64,000 nt of DNA from positions 2,284 to 66,283 of the forward strand of contig DASSNT010000032.1 in the NCBI GenBank assembly GCA_035701285.1, given 5' to 3'. Position numbers and translations under genes: made by a program. The notes under the pieces were generated by a model. The model searched no databases. It was not told where the DNA came from and was given only the letters and a program-made list of their open reading frames with translations. Below are positions 21,911 through 59,495 of the stretch, one piece after another (position 1 is the first letter of the stretch; every line of letters starts with the position of its first letter). This DNA comes from Gammaproteobacteria bacterium (lineage in GTDB: Bacteria; Pseudomonadota; Gammaproteobacteria; Natronospirales; DASSBR01).

Positions 21911-21987
21911 GGCGGCGGTGTGGGGACTTCTTTCAGGGACGGCATCCTGCCTCACACAGCCCTGAAAGAAGTCCCCACACCACCGCC
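21911..21987 (+). repeat. REP-like hairpin element, copy A (short form); probable hutG terminator or stabiliser
   Basis: 28-nt arms GGCGGCGGTGTGGGGACTTCTTTCAGGG and CCCTGAAAGAAGTCCCCACACCACCGCC (1 mismatch) around the 21-nt loop ACGGCATCCTGCCTCACACAG. The loop matches the distal part of copies B and C. Confidence 0.75.
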
Positions 21988-31638: not shown

Positions 31639-31687
31639 TTCTCTTCTTTTCCAGCTAAAGGTGTCAGCAAAATTCAACGTCTGGGGA

Positions 31688-31791
31688 GGTGGTGGCGTAA
31701 CGGCTTTCCGGGTCGTGTGAGACAGGGATGTCGAACGCGAAGCCTACATGGATGTATTCACGGCGTCCCGGGAAGGCGTTACGGTACCGCC
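31688..31791 (-). repeat. REP-like hairpin element, copy B (long form), in the purM-purN spacer
   Basis: The reverse complement reads GGCGGTACCGTAACGCCTTCCCGGG-ACGCCGTGAATACATCCATGTAGGCTTCGCGTTCGACATCCCTGTCTCACACGA-CCCGGAAAGCCGTTACGCCACC. The loop is near-identical to copy C. Confidence 0.7.
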
Positions 31792-31796
31792 TCTCG

Positions 31797-32874: not shown

Positions 32875-34029
32875 ATGACTTTCCTCTCGTCAGGTGTTCG
32901 ATTGAACTTCCCGCGTTTCTTTCCGCTGCTGATCGCCCTCGTTTTGATGCCCGCGCCGCTGCTGGCAAGCGTGGTGCCAAACCTTTATTCGGCCAGCGTG
33001 CCGGTTAACAGCCAGAGCGAGCAGGCGCGCAGCCAGGCGCTGCAGGGCGCGCTGCGGCAGGTTATCGTCAAAGTGACGGGCAGCCGCGCGGCGCCGGACA
33101 ATCCGCAGGTTGCCGCCATCGTCGCGCAGCCCGAACAATACCTCCAGGCCTATCGATACCAGCGCCACGTACCGGCGCCCAACGAACCGCTCTTCGGCCC
33201 CAACGCCTCGGCGACGCTGGACCTCTGGGCGCAATTCGACAGCCAGACGCTCAACCAGGCGCTGCGCGCTGCCGGCCAGCCGCTCTGGGGTAGCGAGCGG
33301 CCGGCAACGCTGGTCTGGATCGCCTACGAACAAGGCGACGGCCAACGCAATATCGTGGGCGCCGAAGCTGCGGACGCAGTGCTGCAAAGCGTGCAGCAGG
33401 CCGCGAAGGCGCGAGGCGTCCCGGTCATGTTTCCGCTGATGGATGTTCAGGATCGCGCGCATCTCAGCTTCTCCGACGTCTGGGGCGGCTTTGTCGCGCC
33501 AGTCGTGCAAGCGTCGCAGCGGTATCAACCGGATGCGATTTTGATCGGGCGGATCGACGGCAGCGGCATCGCCGCCAATGCCCGCTGGACCCTCGTCGTC
33601 GCCGGCCAGCCGACCAGCTGGGACGGCGCCCACGGCAAACCTTCGGAAGTGGCCAGCGCCGCCATTCAGCACCTGGCCGACCTCTACGCCTCCAGGTTCG
33701 TGATCAAGACGGGCGCTGGCGCGCAGCAGATTCCGGCGCTCGACATTATGGTCTCCCATATCGGCGATCTTGGCGCGTACGGCCGAGTCTTGAAGTATCT
33801 GCGTTCGCTGAGCGCCGTCGACAACGTCGAGCCGATGCAAATTACCGGCGACGCGGTGACGTTCAAAGTCAGCGCGCAAGGCACCATTGCCGACCTTGAG
33901 CAGACGATCGCACTGGGCTCAGTGCTCGAAACCAGCAACGAAACAATGCCCGTGCCGCCGCCCGAGGCCAATTCGAGCGTCACCCCAATTGCTGTTCCGC
34001 TGACGCTGCATTATCGATATCAACCCTGA
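32875..34029 (+). CDS. DUF2066-like exported protein
   Basis: 384 aa with a signal peptide. Divergent from purM, which is the usual context for this family. Confidence 0.65.
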
Positions 34030-34036
34030 TTCCGCC

Positions 34037-34770
34037 GTGCCTCACGCGCCCGAACAGCTCGCACTCGGTGTCGGCCTGTCGTCGGGCAGCACCTTCGCGG
34101 ATTTCCATGGTGGTGCCCAGCCTGAAGCGTTGGCGCTCGCCGAACGGCTGGCGCTGCGCACCGATTATCCGATCGCGTGCCTGTGGGGGCCGCCGGAAAC
34201 CGGCAAGACGCATCTCCTTCAGGCCGCCTGTCGCGCCGCCATCGGCGCCGGCCGGACCGCCGCCTATTTGCCGCTGATTGAGTCGAGCTATCTCGACCCT
34301 GATCTGCTCAAGGGCTGGGAACGCTTCGAACTGATTTGTGTCGACGACGTGGGCCAGGTTGCGGGGCAGGTGCGCTGGGAAACAGCGCTGTTCACGCTGT
34401 TCAACATGCTGCACGAATCGGGAGGTACGCTGCTCGCGGCCGCCAGAACACCGCCGGCAGGCAGCGACTGGGCGCTGCCCGATTGGCAATCGCGGCTGGC
34501 CTGGGGGCCCGTCGTCAAGCTCACGTCGATGAGCGACGAGGCGCGGCTGGCCGTGCTGCAGCTTCGGGCCTCGCGGCGCGGGCTGAAGCTGCCGGAAGAG
34601 GTGGCGCGTTTCCTGTTGCATCACGCGCCGCGCGACATGCACTCATTGATGCAGGTGCTCGACCGGCTCGATCATGCCTCACTCGCGTTGCAGCGGCGGT
34701 TGACGATACCGTTGGTGAAGCAGGTGTTGGAACGGGATTCGGGGTTCGGGGCTCGGGATTCGAAGATCAC

Positions 34771-34774
<4 letters not shown>
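34037..34774 (+). CDS. hda: DnaA regulatory inactivator Hda
   Basis: 245 aa with a GTG start. AAA+ Walker A (GPPETGKTHLL) and DnaA-like box VII/VIII. The C-terminal 12 aa are encoded by GGGATTC-type repeats. Confidence 0.85.
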
Positions 34775-53571: not shown

Positions 53572-54747
53572 ATGACGCCGATATCCGTCAGCGCATACAC
53601 CGCTACCAACGCCGCCGGAACCGGCCGCGCGGCGCTGCTGAATGCCCTGGTTGAGCGACGCTCCGGGCTGGCGCCGCTGCGGGAATACTCGGATCTGGAA
53701 GCATTCGTCGGCGAAATGGCCGGTCTTGATGCCATGCCGGTCGCGGCGGAGTTCGCGGAATACGACTGCCGCAATCACCGCCTCGCGCAACTGGCGCTGG
53801 ATCAGGACGGGTTTCGCGCGGCCGTGGCTCGCGCCGCCGCGCGCCACGGGGGCGGGCGCGTCGCGGTCGTCATGGCAACCAGCACGTCGGGTATCCGCGA
53901 GACCGAGGACGCCTACGACTATATGGCGGCGCAGGGGCGGCTGCCGGACGACTTTTGTTTCGACACCACGCACAGCATTCATTCGCTGGGGGAATTCGTG
54001 CGCCTGGCGTTACGCCTGGCCGGGCCGGCTTTCACGATCTCGACCGCCTGTTCGTCAAGCGCGAAAGTCTTCGCCAGCGCCGCGCGTCTGATCGCCGCCG
54101 GTGTCGTTGATGCAGCGGTGGTCGGCGGCGTCGACACGCTGTGCCGTAATACCTTGTACGGCTTCAATTCACTGCAACTGGTGTCGCGCGAGCCGTGCCG
54201 GCCGTGCGATCGTGATCGCGACGGCATCAGCATCGGCGAGGGAGCAGGCTTCGCCTTGCTGGAACGCGGGGATGCCGACGGCTTGCGGCTCATCGGCTAT
54301 GGCGAAAGCAGCGACGCCTGGCATATGTCCGCGCCGCATCCAAATGGACGCGGCGCACAGGCGGCGATGCGCTCCGCTTTGCGGTGCGCCGGCGTCGATG
54401 CTGCCGCAATCGATTACATCAATCTGCACGGCACCGCCAGCATTATCAACGACCGTATCGAAGACAAGGCGGTGGCGGCGGTGTTTGGCGGCACCAGGCC
54501 GTGCAGCTCGACCAAAGGCTGGACCGGACATACCCTCGGCGCCGCCGGCGCGACCGAGGCGGTCATCGCTTGCCTGTGCCTGGAGAACGGACTGGCGCCG
54601 GGCTGCCTGAACTCGGCCAGCGTGGATCCGACGTTCGCCAGCCGGGTGCTGCTGGACAACGACAGTCGGACATTGCGCCGGGTGTTGAGTAACTCGTTGG
54701 GGTTTGCGGGCAACAATTGCAGCCTGATTTTCGAGCGCTGCGGATGA
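53572..54747 (+). CDS. Beta-ketoacyl-ACP synthase (KAS I/II-type KS)
   Basis: 391 aa. Active-site Cys (ISTACSSS), His residues (HMSAPHP, NLHGTAS) and SSTKGWTGHTLGAAG. Confidence 0.9.
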   Translation: MTPISVSAYTATNAAGTGRAALLNALVERRSGLAPLREYSDLEAFVGEMAGLDAMPVAAEFAEYDCRNHRLAQLALDQDGFRAAVARAAARHGGGRVAVVMATSTSGIRETEDAYDYMAAQGRLPDDFCFDTTHSIHSLGEFVRLALRLAGPAFTISTACSSSAKVFASAARLIAAGVVDAAVVGGVDTLCRNTLYGFNSLQLVSREPCRPCDRDRDGISIGEGAGFALLERGDADGLRLIGYGESSDAWHMSAPHPNGRGAQAAMRSALRCAGVDAAAIDYINLHGTASIINDRIEDKAVAAVFGGTRPCSSTKGWTGHTLGAAGATEAVIACLCLENGLAPGCLNSASVDPTFASRVLLDNDSRTLRRVLSNSLGFAGNNCSLIFERCG

Positions 54748-55532
54748 AAGTATGGCTTGAGGGCATCGGCATCTGGGGGCCCGGCATGACCGGCTGGGCC
54801 GGTTGCCGGGCACGGCTGACCTGCGGGTCCGGCAAGCTTGACGATTTCCGGGAACCACCGGCTGCCGTATTGCCGGCGCAGGAACGGCGGCGCAGCACTG
54901 CCAGCGTCCGTCTGGCAGCGGAAGTTGCCGCGCAGGTCTGCGCAGCCGCCGGGCGCGACGCGGCAGATTATGCGACCGTGTCGGCATCGAGCGTCGGCGA
55001 CCTCGCCACGGTAGACGCCATTTGCAGGGCGCTGGTGGCTGATGCGCGGCTGCTGTCGCCCACCCGGTTTCACAATTCGGTGCACAACGCCCCCGGCGGC
55101 TATTGGAGCATCGTGAGCGGTTGCGAGCAGCCGGCCAATGCATTGGCCGCCGGTCCTGCGTCGTTCGCTGCCGGTCTTCTCGAAGCGGCGGTTCAATGCG
55201 CCTTGGAGGCGCGCCCGGTGATGTTGCTGGTTTACGATCTGCCGGGGCCTTCGCCGCTGGCCGAGGCGGCCGGCATCGGCGCCGGCTTTGCAGCGGCATT
55301 AGGGTTGAGTCCCGCGCCCGCTGCCGGCGCGCCGGCATTGGAAATCCGCTATGATGAAAATCAGACGCCGGAGACGGTCATGGAGGACCCGGCGCTTGAA
55401 GCGCTGCGTCGCGGCGCGCCCGGCGCCCGATGCCTGCCGTTGCTGTCGGCAGTCGCAGGCGGCGCAGGCGGCGCCGTGAAGCTGGGCATGGGAGCCGGAA
55501 GCCTGGCCATCACAGTCAGTCCGGCACAATGA
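54744..55532 (+). CDS. KS-like chain-length-factor protein (Ketoacyl-synt_2 type, no active-site Cys)
   Basis: 262 aa. ATGA coupling to the KS gene. Motifs LPAQERRRST, SSVGDLATVDAICRAL and FHNSVHNAPGGYWSI. Confidence 0.75.
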   Translation: MKVWLEGIGIWGPGMTGWAGCRARLTCGSGKLDDFREPPAAVLPAQERRRSTASVRLAAEVAAQVCAAAGRDAADYATVSASSVGDLATVDAICRALVADARLLSPTRFHNSVHNAPGGYWSIVSGCEQPANALAAGPASFAAGLLEAAVQCALEARPVMLLVYDLPGPSPLAEAAGIGAGFAAALGLSPAPAAGAPALEIRYDENQTPETVMEDPALEALRRGAPGARCLPLLSAVAGGAGGAVKLGMGAGSLAITVSPAQ

Positions 55533-55557
55533 AATCATAACGACGCAAGGAAGCAAA

Positions 55558-56295
55558 ATGCCGGTAGCCGACGCCGTTGTAGTGGTGATTCCCGCTTATG
55601 AGGAAGAGGAAACAATAACGTCTGTCGTCGCCGGGGCGCGACAGCAGATTTTGACGGTCATCGTCGTGGACGACGGCTCCACCGACGCAACCGGCGCTCG
55701 CGCTGCTGCGGCGGGTGCAACCGTGCTGACGCACCCGAAGAATCAGGGCAAGGCGGCGGCCTTGCGCAGCGGATTCGACTGGGCGCTCCGTCTGGGGGCG
55801 CGCGCGGTGATCACGCTGGACGGCGACGGACAGCACGATCCGGCGGACATCCCGCGGCTCGTTGATGCCGCGGATCGGCGTCCTGGCGCGCTGATCATCG
55901 GCGCCCGCAGTTCGCGCCGGGAAGGCGCCCCGCGGGCACGGTACTGGGCCAATGGTGTCGCGGATTTCTGGATTTCCCGCGCCGCCGGCTGCCGCATCAG
56001 CGACAGCCAGTCCGGATTCAGGCTATATCCGGAAGCGCTGCTGAGAAGCTGCCGACTCGCGGTAACCAGGGAGAAGAGCTTCGTGTTTGAAAGCGAAATT
56101 TTGATTGACGCGGCGCTCTCCGGCTATCCGGTGGTGGCGGTCCCGGTAGCGAGTCGCTACCCCGTGAACGCGCGCAAGAGTCATTTCCGTCCGGTAGTCG
56201 ACATCAGCCGGATCGTCCGCATGGTCGCCTGGAAGATCGTCTCCGGACGCCACCTGCCCGAACGCGCCTCGGCGCCGAGGTCCGAAACCCGATGA
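55558..56295 (+). CDS. Family 2 glycosyltransferase
   Basis: 245 aa. Motifs VVIPAYEEE, VVDDGSTD and DGDGQHD. No TM segment. Confidence 0.85.
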   Translation: MPVADAVVVVIPAYEEEETITSVVAGARQQILTVIVVDDGSTDATGARAAAAGATVLTHPKNQGKAAALRSGFDWALRLGARAVITLDGDGQHDPADIPRLVDAADRRPGALIIGARSSRREGAPRARYWANGVADFWISRAAGCRISDSQSGFRLYPEALLRSCRLAVTREKSFVFESEILIDAALSGYPVVAVPVASRYPVNARKSHFRPVVDISRIVRMVAWKIVSGRHLPERASAPRSETR

Positions 56296-57521
56296 AAACC
56301 GACATTCTGGTCATTGGCGGCGGCCCCGGCGGCTCGACTGCCGCAACGCTGCTCGCTCGACAGGGCTGGCAGGTCACGCTGCTGGAAAAGGCGCATCATC
56401 CCCGATTTCATATCGGCGAATCGCTGCTGCCGATGAACATGCCGATCCTGCAGGAGCTGGGGGTATTCGATGCCGTCGCGAAGATCGGCGTGCCCAAGCA
56501 TGGCGCCGACTTTGCCGGTCCAACTGACACTTCTTTCAGTACTTATTACTTCCGCGACGCGCTCAGGTGCCGCTTTCCTCACGCATTCCAGGTCAAGCGC
56601 GAGGAATTTGACGAACTGCTGTTCCGTCATGCGGCGGCTAACGGCGTGATTGCACGCGAAGGCGTGCAGGTCGAACAGGTGGCCTGGGAGGCGGACGGGC
56701 GCGCGGTTGCGGAGATCGTGGACGAAGTCGGCAACCGGTCCCGCATCGAGGCGCGCTACGTGGTGGATGCCAGCGGCCGCGATACTCTGCTGGCCAACCA
56801 GTTCAAGCTCAAGCGCCAGAACCCGAAGCACCGCAGCGCGGCGATGTATGCGCATTTTCGCGGCGTGACGGGCCGCAATGGCCAGGACGCGGGCAACATC
56901 GGCATCTATTGGATTGAGCACGGCTGGGGCTGGATGATTCCGCTGCGTAACGGGATCACGAGCGTCGGTTGTGTCTGCTGGCCGGAGTATCTCAAGCAGC
57001 GCCGCGGCATCGCGCAGGACAAGTTCCTGCTGGACACGTTGCGCGCGGTGCCGTCGATGTGGAGCCGACTGGAAAACGCGGAGATGGTGTCGGACGTGAT
57101 GATGGCGGGCAATTATTCCTATGATTGCTCGCAGATCGCCGGCAAGGGCTGGATCATGGTCGGCGATGCCTTTTCCTTTCTTGACCCGGTATTTTCCTCC
57201 GGCGTCTACCTGGCGATGTCGAGCGCACGGCGTGCTGCCGCCGCGGTGGACGCGATTTTGCGCAAGCCGGCCCGCGAAGGGGCTTTGCAGCGGCGCTACG
57301 AGCGCGAGACGCGGAGCGGGCTGAAGAAGTTTTCGTGGTTTATCTATCGGTTTACGACGCCGACGATCCAGAAGCTGTTTAACCAGCCGCGCAATACCTT
57401 GCAAATTCAGCAGGCGGTCACGTCGATGCTCGCCGGAGACGTGTATCGTAACCGGCCGGCTGATCGGCGCTTGCTGTTGTTCAAATTGATTTATCGCCTT
57501 ACCGGGGCTCGTGCCGCTTAG
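56292..57521 (+). CDS. FAD-dependent oxidoreductase, flavin-dependent halogenase-like
   Basis: 409 aa. Motifs GGGPGG, EKAHHPRFHIGESLLP, GWGWMIPL (WxWxIP) and GDAFSFLDPVFSSG. ATGA coupling to the GT gene. Confidence 0.75.
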   Translation: MKTDILVIGGGPGGSTAATLLARQGWQVTLLEKAHHPRFHIGESLLPMNMPILQELGVFDAVAKIGVPKHGADFAGPTDTSFSTYYFRDALRCRFPHAFQVKREEFDELLFRHAAANGVIAREGVQVEQVAWEADGRAVAEIVDEVGNRSRIEARYVVDASGRDTLLANQFKLKRQNPKHRSAAMYAHFRGVTGRNGQDAGNIGIYWIEHGWGWMIPLRNGITSVGCVCWPEYLKQRRGIAQDKFLLDTLRAVPSMWSRLENAEMVSDVMMAGNYSYDCSQIAGKGWIMVGDAFSFLDPVFSSGVYLAMSSARRAAAAVDAILRKPAREGALQRRYERETRSGLKKFSWFIYRFTTPTIQKLFNQPRNTLQIQQAVTSMLAGDVYRNRPADRRLLLFKLIYRLTGARAA

Positions 57522-57538: not shown

Positions 57539-57650
57539 GAGAGGCGGCGCGGCACCGTCTTCCAGGGACGCCGTGAATACGTCCCTGTAGGCTGCGGTCG
57601 CAGCATCCATGCTGCTCACGCCCCTGGAAGACGGCGCCGCACCGCCTCTC
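57539..57650 (+). repeat. REP-like hairpin element, copy C (long form); probable cassette terminator
   Basis: 29-nt arms GAGAGGCGGCGCGGCACCGTCTTCCAGGG and CCCTGGAAGACGGCGCCGCACCGCCTCTC (2 mismatches) around a 54-nt loop. It begins 18 nt after the halogenase stop. Confidence 0.75.
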
Positions 57651-57725: not shown

Positions 57726-57731
57726 TATAAT
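57726..57731 (+). promoter_or_regulatory. Consensus -10 hexamer TATAAT upstream of the IR element and tRNA-Leu(UAG)
   Basis: CCCTGTATAATGGGTGT. The inverted-repeat element starts 5 nt downstream. No good -35 is seen. Confidence 0.4.
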
Positions 57732-57735
57732 GGGT

Positions 57736-57998
57736 GTGGTCTTCCAAGACAATATTTCCGGTTTCAGCGCCCCGGAGAGTCGTCCGGGCAAGGCGCCGAG
57801 CCGAAAGCGTAGCCGCCTACGGTGAGGATTGGCAACGCAGCACGGGCGGCTCTCCGGGGCGCCCGAAGGGAGTTCGCCTGCCGGCCCCTGGCCGCGTTGC
57901 GGCGACTTGACATGGATGGCCATGCCGGCGTCACCGCGCCTTGCCAGGAACCGGCAGGCGAGCTCTGAAATCCGGCAATATTGTCTTGGAAGACCACT
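57736..57998 (+). other. 263-nt element with perfect 21-bp terminal inverted repeats (candidate structured ncRNA or MITE)
   Basis: GTGGTCTTCCAAGACAATATT (57736-57756) is the exact reverse complement of 57978-57998. Pairing continues inward (CCGG, TTTCAG/CTGAAA, CAAGGCGC/GCGCCTTG) around asymmetric bubbles. Confidence 0.6.
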
Positions 57999-58002
57999 TG
58001 CG

Positions 58003-58090
58003 CGAAAGTGGCGGAACTGGTAGACGCGCTGGCTTTAGGTGCCAGTGGGGCGCTCCCCCGTGAGAGTTCGAGTCTCTCCTTTCGCACCAC
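58003..58090 (+). tRNA. tRNA-Leu (anticodon UAG)
   Basis: GCGAAAGTGGCGGAACTGGTAGACGCGCTGGCTTTAGGTGCCAGTGGGGCGCTCCCCCGTGAGAGTTCGAGTCTCTCCTTTCGCACCA folds as a class II cloverleaf. The anticodon loop is TT-TAG-GT. CCA is encoded. Confidence 0.9.
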
Positions 58091-58162: not shown

Positions 58163-59495
58163 ATGGAGGTTTCAGTCGAATCAACCGGCGCACTTGAGCG
58201 CCGTATGCGGGTGCAGATCCCGTCCGAGCAGGTGGAAAGCGAGGTGGACAAGCGCCTGCAGTCGGTGGGCCAGCGCGCCAAGCTGAAAGGTTTCCGGCCC
58301 GGCAAGGTGCCGATGAAGGTTGTGCGCCAGCAGTATGGCGCGGAAGTGCGCCAGGACGTGGTGCGCGATCTGCTGCAGTCGAGTTGGGTCGATGCGATCA
58401 AGGAGCAGCAACTGGAGCCTGCCGGCGGGCCGAAGATCGACGATATCAGCGCCGAGCCCGGTTCAAACATGGAATATACGGCCATCTTCGAGGTGTATCC
58501 GGAGATCAAGGTCGACAACGTCGACAAACTCAAGGTTTCGCGCCCGGAGGTTGAAATTCAGCCGGCTGACATCGACAGCATGCTTGAGCGCCTGCGCGAG
58601 CAGAATGCGTCCTTCGAGCCGGTTGAGCGGCCGGCAGCCGAGGGCGACCAGGTGAAGGTTGATTTCCACGGCACGAAGGATGGCAAGGCCTTTCCGGGCG
58701 GTCATGGCGAGAACGTCGACGTCGTGCTCGGCGAGGGCCGTATGATTCCGGGCTTCGAGTCCGGTATCGAGGGCATGAGCGCCGGCGAAGAGCGCGACAT
58801 CGAGGTGACTTTCCCGGACGAGTACCCGGTTGAGGACCTGAAGGGCCAGAAGGCCAATTTCCATCTGAAGGCGCACGAGGTGGCCGAGCGCCGGGTGCCG
58901 GGTGCCGGAGATCGATGACGAGTTTGTCAAAAAGTTCGGCATCGAGTCTGGCGGCGTGGACGCGTTGCGCGACAAGATTCGCGACAACATGCAGCGCGAG
59001 CTGGATGAAAATGTCCGCACCAAGTTGAAAAATCAGCTTATGGACCAATTATTCGAAGCTAACCCGGTCGATGTGCCCGCGGCGCTGGTCGAAAACGAGG
59101 TCCAGCGCGTGCGCGAGGACACGCTGCGGCGGATGGGCATCAACGACCCGAAGCAGGCGCCGGACCTGCCGAACGATATGTTCGAGGAGCAGGCCCGCAA
59201 GCGGGTCGGGCTCGGCCTGCTGATCGGCGAGTTGATCAAGCGCGAGGAGATCAAGGCGGACGAGGAGCGCGTGCAGCAGAAGCTTGAAGCGATTACGGCG
59301 AGCTATGGCGAATCGGAACAGATGATTCGCGCCTACCGCGCCAATGCCGATGCAATGCGTCAGGTTGAAAGCCTGGTGCTGGAAGACCAGGTGACGGACT
59401 GGCTGCTGGAGCGCGCTGACGTCACTGCCGAGCCGAGCAGTTTTGCTGCAGTGATGGGGATGGAACCGGCTGCGGCCGAAGAGGAGAAATCATGA
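58163..59495 (+). pseudogene. tig: Trigger factor, interrupted by a frameshift (7-bp tandem duplication at 58893-58906)
   Basis: ORF 58163-58918 carries the N-domain (GFRPGKVP signature) and the FKBP PPIase domain. ORF 58902-59495 (GTG) carries the C-domain. Deleting one GGGTGCC copy gives a continuous ...AERRVPEIDDEFVKKFG... protein of about 441 aa. Confidence 0.85.

What the first reader, a model, noticed from the sequence alone, without database searches (positions are those of the whole stretch)
57726..58002. 263-nt inverted-repeat element inserted exactly between a consensus -10 box and tRNA-Leu(UAG): structured ncRNA or MITE
What the sequence shows:
- 57736-57756 (GTGGTCTTCCAAGACAATATT) is the perfect reverse complement of 57978-57998.
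- Pairing continues inward through CCGG/CCGG, TTTCAG/CTGAAA and CAAGGCGC/GCGCCTTG. These stems are separated by asymmetric internal loops of about 15-20 nt.
- The GC-rich interior of about 140 nt has further local helices: GCAACGC/GCGTTGC, GGTGA/TCACC, and the hairpin CATGG-ATGG-CCATG.
- The interior is not a simple palindrome, which fits a folded RNA better than plain dyad DNA.
- A consensus TATAAT (57726-57731) ends 4 nt before the element.
- The element ends 4 nt before the mature 5' end of tRNA-Leu (58003).
- If the 263 nt are removed conceptually, the -10 box sits about 8 nt from the tRNA. That is the geometry of a minimal tRNA promoter.

Two readings follow from this.
- The element may be a mobile MITE-like insertion into the tRNA leader. 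However, no target-site duplication is visible.
- Alternatively it is a rod-like ncRNA (long closing stem plus central bubble, superficially like 6S RNA) co-transcribed with the tRNA and released by RNase P/E processing.

I could not match it to RNase P RNA, tmRNA, SRP RNA, 6S RNA or common riboswitch consensus sequences from memory.
Basis: partly seen in the sequence, partly recalled or inferred. Interest (0 to 1): 0.65.

Follow-up and report, generated by a model that had tools for sequence, protein, structure and literature searches.

The report
Mobile palindromic repeat in tRNA leader
A 262-base self-complementary piece of mobile DNA sits between the promoter and a leucine tRNA gene of an uncultured gammaproteobacterium; it is a new family of a familiar kind of bacterial repeat, not a new RNA gene.

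Summary
The inverted-repeat element is real. It spans 57736-57997 (262 nt) with perfect 21-bp termini. It lies 4 nt after a TATAAT box that is conserved in relatives, and 4 nt before tRNA-Leu(UAG). It folds as a 30-bp closing helix carrying two 96-nt hairpins, not as a 6S-like rod, and it folds equally well on both strands. No Rfam family matches.

Three related genomes have the same promoter and tRNA only 13-17 nt apart, with no element. A fourth keeps a 26-nt relic of the right end, in register. One of the empty-site relatives carries an 89%-identical copy at a different locus, filling the 5-nt gap between a DUF2066 gene and hda, in the opposite orientation to transcription. That locus is empty in the window and in three other relatives. 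The element has therefore moved.

There is no target-site duplication, no coding signal and no transposase nearby. The two copies differ by seven compensatory pair changes, and none disrupts the shared fold. The 58-nt centre is identical, whereas host genes are only 76% identical.

Best reading: a non-autonomous MITE/REPIN-like element that is passively co-transcribed with the tRNA. Copy number per genome and the mobilising enzyme remain unknown.

The parts
57726..57731 (+). TATAAT -10 box of the tRNA-Leu promoter, in the conserved context CTGTATAAT
   Evidence: CTGTATAAT is present upstream of tRNA-Leu(UAG) in L005, L007, L009 and L012. The function is inferred from this conservation. The consensus scan found no full -35/-10 pair.
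57736..57997 (.). The whole mobile palindromic element (262 nt)
   Evidence: Homology with the L009 copy starts and stops exactly at these bases: 88.6% over 264 aligned columns, or 89.3% when gap columns are excluded. It is absent from the orthologous leaders of L005, L009 and L012.
57736..57766 (.). Left terminal inverted repeat, the 5' arm of closing helix P1. It begins GTGG and contains the mini-palindrome GTCTT-CC-AAGAC.
   Evidence: Five positions differ from the L009 copy, and all five are mirrored in the right arm.
57767..57862 (.). Internal hairpin A (23-bp arms, 50-nt structured interior)
   Evidence: Inverted repeat I4 and the folds. It shows two compensatory pair changes relative to the L009 copy.
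57863..57869 (.). 7-nt linker CCGAAGG at the dyad centre
   Evidence: Folds. It lies inside the 58-nt block that is 100% identical between the two copies.
57870..57965 (.). Internal hairpin B (23-bp arms, 50-nt interior with the CATGG-ATGG-CCATG tip)
   Evidence: Inverted repeat I5 and the folds. It is 94% identical to the L009 copy.
57966..57997 (.). Right terminal inverted repeat, the 3' arm of P1
   Evidence: A 26-nt relic of this arm survives in the L007 leader, at the same 4-nt distance from the tRNA.
57998..58001 (+). TTGC spacer between the element and the tRNA
58002..58089 (+). tRNA-Leu(UAG), intact
   Evidence: ARAGORN and the Rfam tRNA model. It is 88/88 identical to the L005 tRNA.
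34030..34036 (+). Empty counterpart of the second insertion site: the 7-nt spacer TTCCGCC between the DUF2066 stop codon and the hda GTG start
   Evidence: In L009 the equivalent 5-nt spacer (CTA/CG) holds the 264-nt copy.

Best explanation
The feature is one copy of a small, non-autonomous, palindromic mobile DNA element. It belongs to the MITE/REPIN class and is a previously undescribed family in an uncultured gammaproteobacterial genus.

Shown:
- It is an insertion into the short leader between the conserved -10 box and tRNA-Leu(UAG).
- A sister copy occupies a different intergenic gap in a related genome.
- Each of the two sites is empty in the other genome.

Inferred:
- It encodes nothing and is moved in trans by an enzyme encoded elsewhere.
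- Both insertions lack a target duplication, the ends begin GTGG followed by a small hairpin, and base-pairing rather than sequence is what the ends preserve. The enzyme therefore most likely recognises folded (hairpin or single-stranded) ends, as REP-associated or IS200/IS605-type HUH transposases do, rather than acting as a cut-and-paste DDE transposase. I put this sub-claim at about 0.4-0.5.
- In this window the element is carried passively. Transcription from the tRNA promoter should start within its first few bases and run through it, because it has no terminator-like T-run.
- The roughly 265-nt folded leader should then be removed by RNase III cutting the 30-bp closing helix and/or by RNase P at the tRNA 5' end. 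This would leave a normal tRNA.
For: Insertion at the tRNA leader:
- Leaders of L005, L009 and L012 have CTGTATAAT 13-17 nt from the same tRNA and no element.
- The L007 leader keeps a relic of the right end in register: 19 of 30 anchored positions match, and 0 of 20,000 shuffles reach this.

Second copy and reciprocal empty sites:
- L009:2831-3094 is 88.6% identical over 264 aligned columns, in reverse orientation, between the DUF2066 stop and the hda start.
- An independent Logan contig, L044, confirms that copy.
- The DUF2066-hda junction is 7 nt in the window. It is overlapping or 5 nt in L045, L046/L047 and L048.

Features of a DNA-level palindrome:
- Both copies fold into the same Y shape on both strands, at -175 to -191 kcal/mol.
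- There is no excess of G:T over A:C mismatches on either strand.

Pairing is maintained:
- There are 7 pairs changed on both sides, 4 changed on one side to or from G:U, and none broken in the consensus structure. Slid controls give 0-2.

Not protein-coding:
- Two 1-nt indels separate the copies and substitutions show no clear 3-periodicity.
- Searches of two protein collections with translations of the element found no ORF called on another copy.

Other:
- No RNA family matches.
- No terminator-like site lies in the element, and the tRNA is intact.
- RNase III cleavage at the paired TIRs of co-transcribed Correia elements is documented (PMC10969869).
- GTAG/GTGG-headed REPs with 5-bp stems, 2-nt loops and head-to-head dimers are documented (PMC3733652).
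- Compensatory changes in REPIN hairpins are documented (PMC3116915).
Against: - Only two full copies and one relic were found, in about 170 kb of non-redundant DNA from this genus. Multi-copy status within one genome is therefore not shown.
- No transposase or RAYT was found. None of the 26 window ORFs scanned against Pfam is one.
- No IS with these ends was found on plasmids.
- The conservation pattern is the reverse of the usual MITE/REPIN pattern. The termini are the most diverged part (78-82%) and the centre is invariant.
- The copies are far more alike (89%) than the host genes (76%; third codon positions 54-55%). This needs either recent spread or purifying selection.
- No standalone REP-like units with this head were found.
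- Transcription and processing of the element are entirely inferred.
Confidence: 0.72

Rival explanations
1. It is primarily a functional structured RNA. In this reading it is a three-way-junction ncRNA gene, itself mobile or duplicated, that is co-transcribed with the tRNA and released by RNase P/E/III. Selection on the RNA would keep its core sequence and its helices.
For: - Both copies lie in regions that should be transcribed: a tRNA leader, and the inside of the DUF2066-hda operon.
- There are 7 compensatory and 4 wobble-compatible changes, and none is disruptive.
- The 58-nt centre is 100% identical, and overall identity is 89% against 54-55% at synonymous positions of host genes.
- If the L007 relic is orthologous, the window copy is old yet intact.
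- In L009 the strand co-directional with transcription folds 10 kcal/mol better than the other strand.
Against: - The two copies are in opposite orientation relative to the local direction of transcription.
- In the window copy the two strands fold equally well.
- There is no strand bias of G:T against A:C mismatches.
- No Rfam match appears even at E <= 10, apart from generic hairpin models.
- No internal promoter-like site was found.
- The element is absent from the orthologous loci of close relatives, so neither site needs it.
- With two sequences, the covariation cannot separate RNA from DNA hairpins or from co-evolving protein-binding ends.
Confidence: 0.12
2. It is a classical IS-derived MITE moved by a DDE transposase that binds the 21-30-bp terminal inverted repeats. 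The missing target duplication would be an accident of these two sites, or a property of the parent IS.
For: - The perfect 21-bp TIRs, small size, lack of an ORF and intergenic sites all fit the definition.
- Changes in the TIR are mirrored in both arms, as expected if both ends must fit one protein.
Against: - There is no direct repeat of any length at either insertion: GGGT|..|TTGC and CTA|..|CG.
- The L009 site reconstructs to a 5-nt spacer with nothing left over.
- The TIRs are the least conserved part, whereas the transposase-binding ends of MITE families are normally the most conserved.
- No IS with these ends was found in the plasmid collection, where only single chance matches appeared.
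- No transposase lies in the window.
Confidence: 0.15
3. It is not mobile at all. In this reading it is an ancestral regulatory palindrome, such as a protein-binding or terminator-like structure, that was present at both loci and was lost differentially. Alternatively, it is an assembly artefact of the MAG.
For: - The source is a metagenome-assembled genome.
- No independent assembly covers the window copy; the Logan contig L001 stops upstream of it.
Against: - Differential loss would need clean, exact removal in at least three lineages at each site, leaving spacers of 0-17 nt.
- The L009 copy is confirmed by a second assembly.
- The L007 relic lies at the same position as the window copy.
- No T-run follows any of the helices.
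Confidence: 0.03

Closest known systems
REPINs / head-to-head dimers of GTAG-type REP sequences (Bertels & Rainey 2011, PMC3116915; Di Nocera et al. 2013, PMC3733652)
   Same: - Intergenic and non-coding.
- Two inverted end units that together close a long hairpin.
- No target duplication.
- Compensatory changes keep the hairpin.
- The ends begin with a GT[AG]G-like head (here GTGG) followed by a 5-bp stem with a 2-nt pyrimidine loop. GTGG heads, 5-bp stems, short TY-type loops and structured spacers are all described for GTAG REP families.
   Different: - It is 262 nt, against roughly 70-110 nt, with a spacer of about 200 nt that is itself two 96-nt hairpins.
- The ends are the least conserved part and the spacer the most conserved. 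In REPINs the REP ends are near-invariant and the spacer varies.
- No single REP units of this type were found in about 225 kb of held sequence.
- No RAYT gene was identified.
- High copy number is not shown.
Correia / NEMIS elements of Neisseria
   Same: - A small TIR-bounded palindromic element.
- Often inserted between promoters and genes and co-transcribed.
- The paired TIRs form an RNase III substrate in the transcript (PMC10969869). This is the model for how the tRNA could still mature here.
   Different: - From my own knowledge, Correia elements are about 100-155 bp, duplicate a TA target and carry IHF sites.
- This element is 262 nt, has no duplication, folds as a three-way junction and shares no sequence with them.
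ERIC / IRU elements of enterobacteria
   Same: - Imperfect palindromes in transcribed intergenic DNA.
- Found in either orientation.
- From my own knowledge, their sequence is better conserved between species than the surrounding genes.
- Their mobilising enzyme is unknown.
- Copy numbers range from tens to hundreds.
   Different: - ERIC is about 127 bp (my own knowledge) and belongs to a different lineage.
- There is no sequence similarity.
- ERIC copies are often orthologous between species, whereas here the two copies are at different loci.
6S RNA
   Same: Only a long closing helix and a size of a few hundred nucleotides.
   Different: - No match to the Rfam 6S models, or to any other family, even at E <= 10.
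- The fold is a Y, not a rod with a central bubble.
- It is strand-symmetric.
- It is absent from close relatives.

Membership tests
MITE (miniature inverted-repeat transposable element) | Terminal inverted repeats | tested here: met
   The terminal repeats are 21 bp perfect and pairing extends to 30 bp. The second copy has 33-nt arms that are 94% complementary.
MITE (miniature inverted-repeat transposable element) | Small size (under about 300-500 bp) with no transposase or other conserved ORF | tested here: met
   The copies are 262 and 264 nt. Two 1-nt indels separate them and substitutions show no clear codon periodicity. Protein searches with translations of the element found no ORF from another copy.
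MITE (miniature inverted-repeat transposable element) | Direct target-site duplication flanking the element | tested here: not met
   The window flanks are GGGT|..|TTGC. The L009 flanks are CTA|..|CG, and the empty-site spacer reconstructs without any leftover.
MITE (miniature inverted-repeat transposable element) | Evidence of mobility: presence/absence polymorphism at orthologous sites | tested here: met
   The two loci are reciprocally filled and empty in two genomes. Three more empty relatives were found at the tRNA-leader site and three more at the hda site.
MITE (miniature inverted-repeat transposable element) | Multiple copies within one genome | tested here: inconclusive
   There is one copy in the 64-kb window and one in the 14.7 kb of L043 (the L009 genome). 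No further copies appear in about 225 kb of held related DNA. A Logan contig breaks inside the conserved core, which hints at a repeat. The whole genomes could not be scanned.
MITE (miniature inverted-repeat transposable element) | A parent IS with the same termini | tested here: inconclusive
   Searching the TIRs against 72,556 plasmids gave only single chance matches. Exact scans with this copy's TIR gave only chance hits in the genome and metagenome collections and no match in the viral contigs. The TIR proved to be the variable part, so these scans were insensitive.
REPIN / REP-RAYT system | REP unit: a GT[AG]G head followed by a short palindrome, present as two inverted units | tested here: inconclusive
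   Each end reads GTG-GTCTT-CC-AAGAC in the window copy and GTG-GTCCT-TC-AGGGC in the L009 copy. One compensatory and one wobble change occur inside the mini-stem. The stem is only 5 bp and shares the last G of the head. No singletons were found.
REPIN / REP-RAYT system | A RAYT (Y1 HUH transposase) gene in the genome, typically flanked by the REPs | not testable with these tools
   None of the 26 window ORFs scanned is a transposase.
REPIN / REP-RAYT system | Conserved REP ends with a variable spacer; length about 70-110 nt; tens to hundreds of copies | tested here: not met
   The ends are 78-82% identical against 89-100% for the interior. The length is 262 nt. Copy number is not established.
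Any curated RNA family (Rfam 15), including 6S, SRP, RNase P, tmRNA, riboswitches and ribozymes | A score at or above the family's gathering threshold | tested here: not met
   Only tRNAs pass in the window. At E <= 10 both copies hit only generic long-hairpin (miRNA precursor) and weak SRP models, far below threshold.

The most novel reading that the evidence does not exclude
The element is more than a selfish repeat. In this reading it is a mobile, structured nucleic-acid module whose three-way-junction core is under strong purifying selection and whose closing helix is free to covary. It would insert without target duplication, with base precision, a few nucleotides upstream of gene starts: 4 nt before a tRNA 5' end and 2 nt before the hda start codon. 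It would act either as a new class of hairpin-guided, ssDNA-transposed element or as an RNA-level processing or insulating module that its hosts retain.
Probability: 0.12. Interest if true: 0.6.

Novelty: new member of a known kind. Interest (0 to 1): 0.3.

Why it matters
- The finding resolves a puzzling structure as mobile DNA. This prevents it from being annotated as a novel ncRNA.
- It documents that a 262-nt, very stable fold can sit between a promoter and an apparently intact, single tRNA-Leu(UAG) gene. This is a natural case for studying how tRNA maturation (RNase III/RNase P) tolerates long structured leaders.
- It adds a repeat family from an uncultured gammaproteobacterial lineage with three unusual traits: no target duplication, an invariant core, and covarying ends. 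If these hold up across many copies, they could point to an uncharacterised mobilisation mechanism.

Tried and rejected
Searches that found nothing useful:
- Exact scans with the terminal repeat (19-mer against GTDB genomes, 18-mer against JGI metagenomes, 19-mer against viral contigs) returned only single-arm chance matches in low-GC DNA, or nothing. The second copy later showed that the terminal repeat is the variable part.
- Core probes against viral contigs gave nothing.
- blastn of the whole element against plasmids and phages gave nothing.
- blastn of the terminal repeats alone against plasmids gave only chance matches.
- I looked for other copies through spurious ORFs. A concatenated six-frame translation against 5.8 billion proteins gave nothing. 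The open minus-strand frame against 1.84 billion representatives hit only low-complexity giant proteins.
- nhmmer with a two-copy profile against all held related loci found no further or degenerate copies.
- A search for singleton REP units with the GTGG head found none.

Interpretations rejected:
- 6S-like rod.
- Protein-coding. One frame is open across the element in L009, but two 1-nt indels and the early stop in the window copy break it.
- Internal promoter or terminator. None was found.
- Generic local alignment did not support the L007 relic. Only the alignment anchored on the tRNA start did.

Look-ups that failed: two attempts to extend beyond the window (ClpX and the Tig fragment) were not on record.

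Full report
**1. What is in the sequence**

The 21-mer GTGGTCTTCCAAGACAATATT occurs at 57736-57756 on the + strand and at 57977-57997 on the - strand. It occurs nowhere else in the window, even with three mismatches allowed, and none is expected by chance. Pairing between the two ends extends to 29-30 bp.

The element is 57736-57997, 262 nt. TATAAT is at 57726-57731 and GGGT follows it. After the element come TTGC and then tRNA-Leu(UAG) at 58002-58089.

Each has 23-bp arms separated by 50 nt: 57767-57789/57840-57862 and 57870-57892/57943-57965.

The minimum-free-energy fold is a closing helix that carries two side-by-side 96-nt hairpins joined by CCGAAGG. Its energy is -178 to -180 kcal/mol, with z = -11.6 against dinucleotide shuffles. 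Those cross-pairings are real and lie in register with the global dyad, but they are not the preferred fold.

The opposite strand folds just as well, at -176.6 kcal/mol with z = -11.8.

**2. No known RNA family**

cmscan at gathering thresholds finds only the three tRNAs in the window. At E <= 10, both this copy and the second copy hit only generic long-hairpin models (plant miRNA precursors) and weak SRP models, far below threshold. There is no 6S, RNase P, tmRNA, riboswitch or ribozyme match.

**3. Source and relatives**

The Tig fragment encoded downstream is identical to a protein from a third-party-annotated MAG named only 'Gammaproteobacteria bacterium', on an 86.7-kb contig. Five related lineages have Tig at 72-83% identity. 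The next hits, at about 55%, are Woeseiaceae and Steroidobacteraceae. The window, L005, L007 and L009 form an unresolved group at 78-81% Tig identity.

**4. The tRNA-leader site is empty in relatives**

All relatives keep CTGTATAAT upstream of the same tRNA. The gap between the -10 box and the tRNA 5' end is as follows:

| Locus | Gap (nt) |
|---|---|
| L005 | 17 |
| L009 | 16 |
| L012 | 13 |

The -10 box is therefore a conserved promoter element, and the 262 nt are a lineage-specific insertion into a very short leader.

L007 has a 43-nt leader whose last 30 nt align with the last 29 nt before the window's tRNA. That stretch is the right terminal repeat plus the spacer. The match is 19 of 30 positions with one gap, and 0 of 20,000 shuffles reach it. 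An unanchored local alignment was not significant. I read this as a relic of the element's right end at the same position. Either the insertion predates the split between the window lineage and L007, or the site was hit twice.

**5. A second copy at another locus, with reciprocal empty sites**

A local blastn of the element against every fetched locus found a second copy at L009:2831-3094 (GCA_035690945.1). It is 88.6% identical over 264 aligned columns and lies in the reverse orientation.

That copy begins 3 nt after the stop codon of a DUF2066 gene and ends 2 nt before the GTG start of hda. An independent Logan assembly, L044, carries the same junction.

The window itself contains DUF2066 (32875-34029) and hda (34037-34774), separated by only 7 nt. 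In L045 and L046/L047 the two genes overlap, and in L048 they are 5 nt apart.

Each genome is therefore filled at one site and empty at the other. This is direct evidence that the element inserts, or excises cleanly. Both L009 genes are on the + strand and the copy there is reversed. The two copies therefore have opposite orientation relative to local transcription.

**6. Ends and targets**

Homology between the copies stops exactly at GTG(G/A)TC... and ...GACCAC. The flanks are GGGT|..|TTGC in the window and CTA|..|CG in L009. Neither site has a direct repeat of any length, and the L009 spacer reconstructs to 5 nt with nothing left over. Two sites are too few to call a target motif.

**7. How the two copies differ**

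Identity by segment:

| Segment | Identity |
|---|---|
| Whole element | 89% |
| Two arms of the closing helix | 78-82% |
| Hairpin A | 89% |
| Linker plus hairpin B | 94% |
| Central 58 nt | 100% |

For comparison, tig and hda of the same two genomes are 76% identical at the nucleotide level, with third codon positions at 54-55%.

Of 30 differing columns, 18 lie in paired positions of the shared fold:
- 7 pairs changed on both sides. Five are in the closing helix and two are in hairpin A.
- 4 pairs changed on one side, to or from G:U.
- No pair is broken.
- Slid-partner controls give 0-2 double changes.

Twenty-four of the 28 substitutions are transitions, and two 1-nt indels separate the copies.

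Each terminal repeat also contains a mini-palindrome: GTCTT-CC-AAGAC in the window and GTCCT-TC-AGGGC in L009. It keeps its pairing through one compensatory change and one wobble change.

Counting mismatches over the union of both strands' folds shows no strand bias. The window copy has 4 G:T against 3 A:C, and the L009 copy has 1 against 3.

The complementarity is therefore maintained. With two sequences, however, this cannot distinguish an RNA helix, a DNA hairpin or cruciform, or two ends co-evolving with one binding protein.

**8. What it is not**

- It is not protein-coding. The indels break every frame, and the frame that is open across the L009 copy stops early in the window copy. Two protein-collection searches with its translations found no ORF called on another copy.
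- It is not flanked by a transposase. The 26 window ORFs scanned against Pfam are housekeeping genes or have no Pfam match.
- It does not contain a promoter-like or terminator-like site by the consensus scan.
- It was not found in plasmid, phage or viral collections.

**9. Most likely mechanism**

Shown: it is a non-coding palindromic insertion with a sister copy elsewhere and reciprocal empty sites.

Inferred: it is a non-autonomous element mobilised in trans. Three things make a hairpin- or ssDNA-recognising enzyme of the REP-associated or IS200/IS605 type more likely than a DDE transposase:
- Neither site has a target duplication.
- The ends have a GTGG head plus a mini-hairpin.
- The ends preserve pairing rather than sequence.

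GTGG heads, 5-bp stems, 2-nt pyrimidine loops, head-to-head dimers and structured spacers are all described for GTAG-type REPs (PMC3733652). Compensatory changes are common in REPIN hairpins (PMC3116915).

It fails other REPIN criteria, however. It is 262 nt long, its ends are less conserved than its interior, no singleton units were found and no RAYT is known. I therefore class it as REPIN/MITE-like and do not file it as a member of either family.

In the window, transcription from the conserved -10 box should start within the first bases of the element and read through it. A 30-bp perfect helix is a canonical RNase III substrate, as shown for the paired repeats of co-transcribed Correia elements (PMC10969869). 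RNase P then defines the tRNA 5' end. The tRNA gene is intact and 88/88 identical to that of L005. All of this processing is inferred, not shown.

**10. What remains odd**

- The conservation pattern is the reverse of a typical MITE or REPIN: an invariant centre with covarying, fast-changing ends.
- The copies are much more similar than neutral sites of their hosts.
- If the L007 relic is orthologous, the window copy has stayed intact for a long time.

These points leave room for a selected function of the fold, or for recent spread between lineages. Copy number per genome is unknown. The Logan contig L044 ends inside the 100%-conserved core, which is what a repeat does to a k-mer assembly, but that is only a hint.

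**11. Verdict**

This is a new family of a known kind of element. Interest is modest, at 0.3. The most novel reading still open is a selected, structure-defined mobile module or a new hairpin-guided insertion mechanism. I give that a probability of about 0.12.

Noticed in passing
window 57539-57650; 21911-21987; 31683-31795; also L045:49-143, L045:5499-5586, L046:20127-20247: A second, unrelated family of hairpin repeats, 77-121 nt long. A conserved core of about 65 nt (…CAGGGACGCCGTGAATACGTCCCTGTAGGCT…GGCATCCTGCCTCACACAGCCCTG…) is closed by arms that differ between copies but stay self-complementary. The copies sit after stop codons or between genes. The purN/purM copy is at the same position in the window and in L045. 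One copy lies only about 85 nt upstream of the element studied here.
   Followed up: partly
window 58891-58904 (tig, 58163-59495): The trigger factor gene is split into two overlapping ORFs (58163-58918 and 58902-59495) by a 7-nt tandem duplication, CCGGGTG x2. The duplication is absent from L005, L007 and L009. It is either an assembly error in the MAG or a real frameshift.
   Followed up: partly
L044 (Logan SRR25158193 contig), positions 1-142; L001 (Logan SRR26502134 contig), end: Short-read contigs stop inside repeats. L044 ends at element position 142, within the 58-nt core that is identical in both copies. L001 ends inside the 57539-57650 hairpin. Both breaks are consistent with these sequences being multi-copy in the samples.
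   Followed up: no
L009:3080-3099 (= L043:9984-10003): In the L009 copy, the element's terminal ...GAAGGATCAC supplies an AAGGA Shine-Dalgarno-like motif 6 nt upstream of the hda GTG start. In relatives hda overlaps DUF2066 or lies within 7 nt of it. In the folded transcript that motif would be buried in the 33-bp closing helix.
   Followed up: no
window 53572-57521: Directly upstream lies an aryl-polyene-like biosynthetic cluster. It encodes a beta-ketoacyl synthase, a KS-like protein, a family-2 glycosyltransferase and a FAD-dependent halogenase-like oxidoreductase. Part of it is also found next to tig in L007 and L012, but not in L005 or L009.
   Followed up: no
L043:7432-7524: In the L009 genome the purN/purM spacer holds a different 93-nt hairpin with 41-nt arms. 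This is the position where the window and L045 carry the other hairpin family, so this spacer is a recurrent home for palindromes.
   Followed up: no
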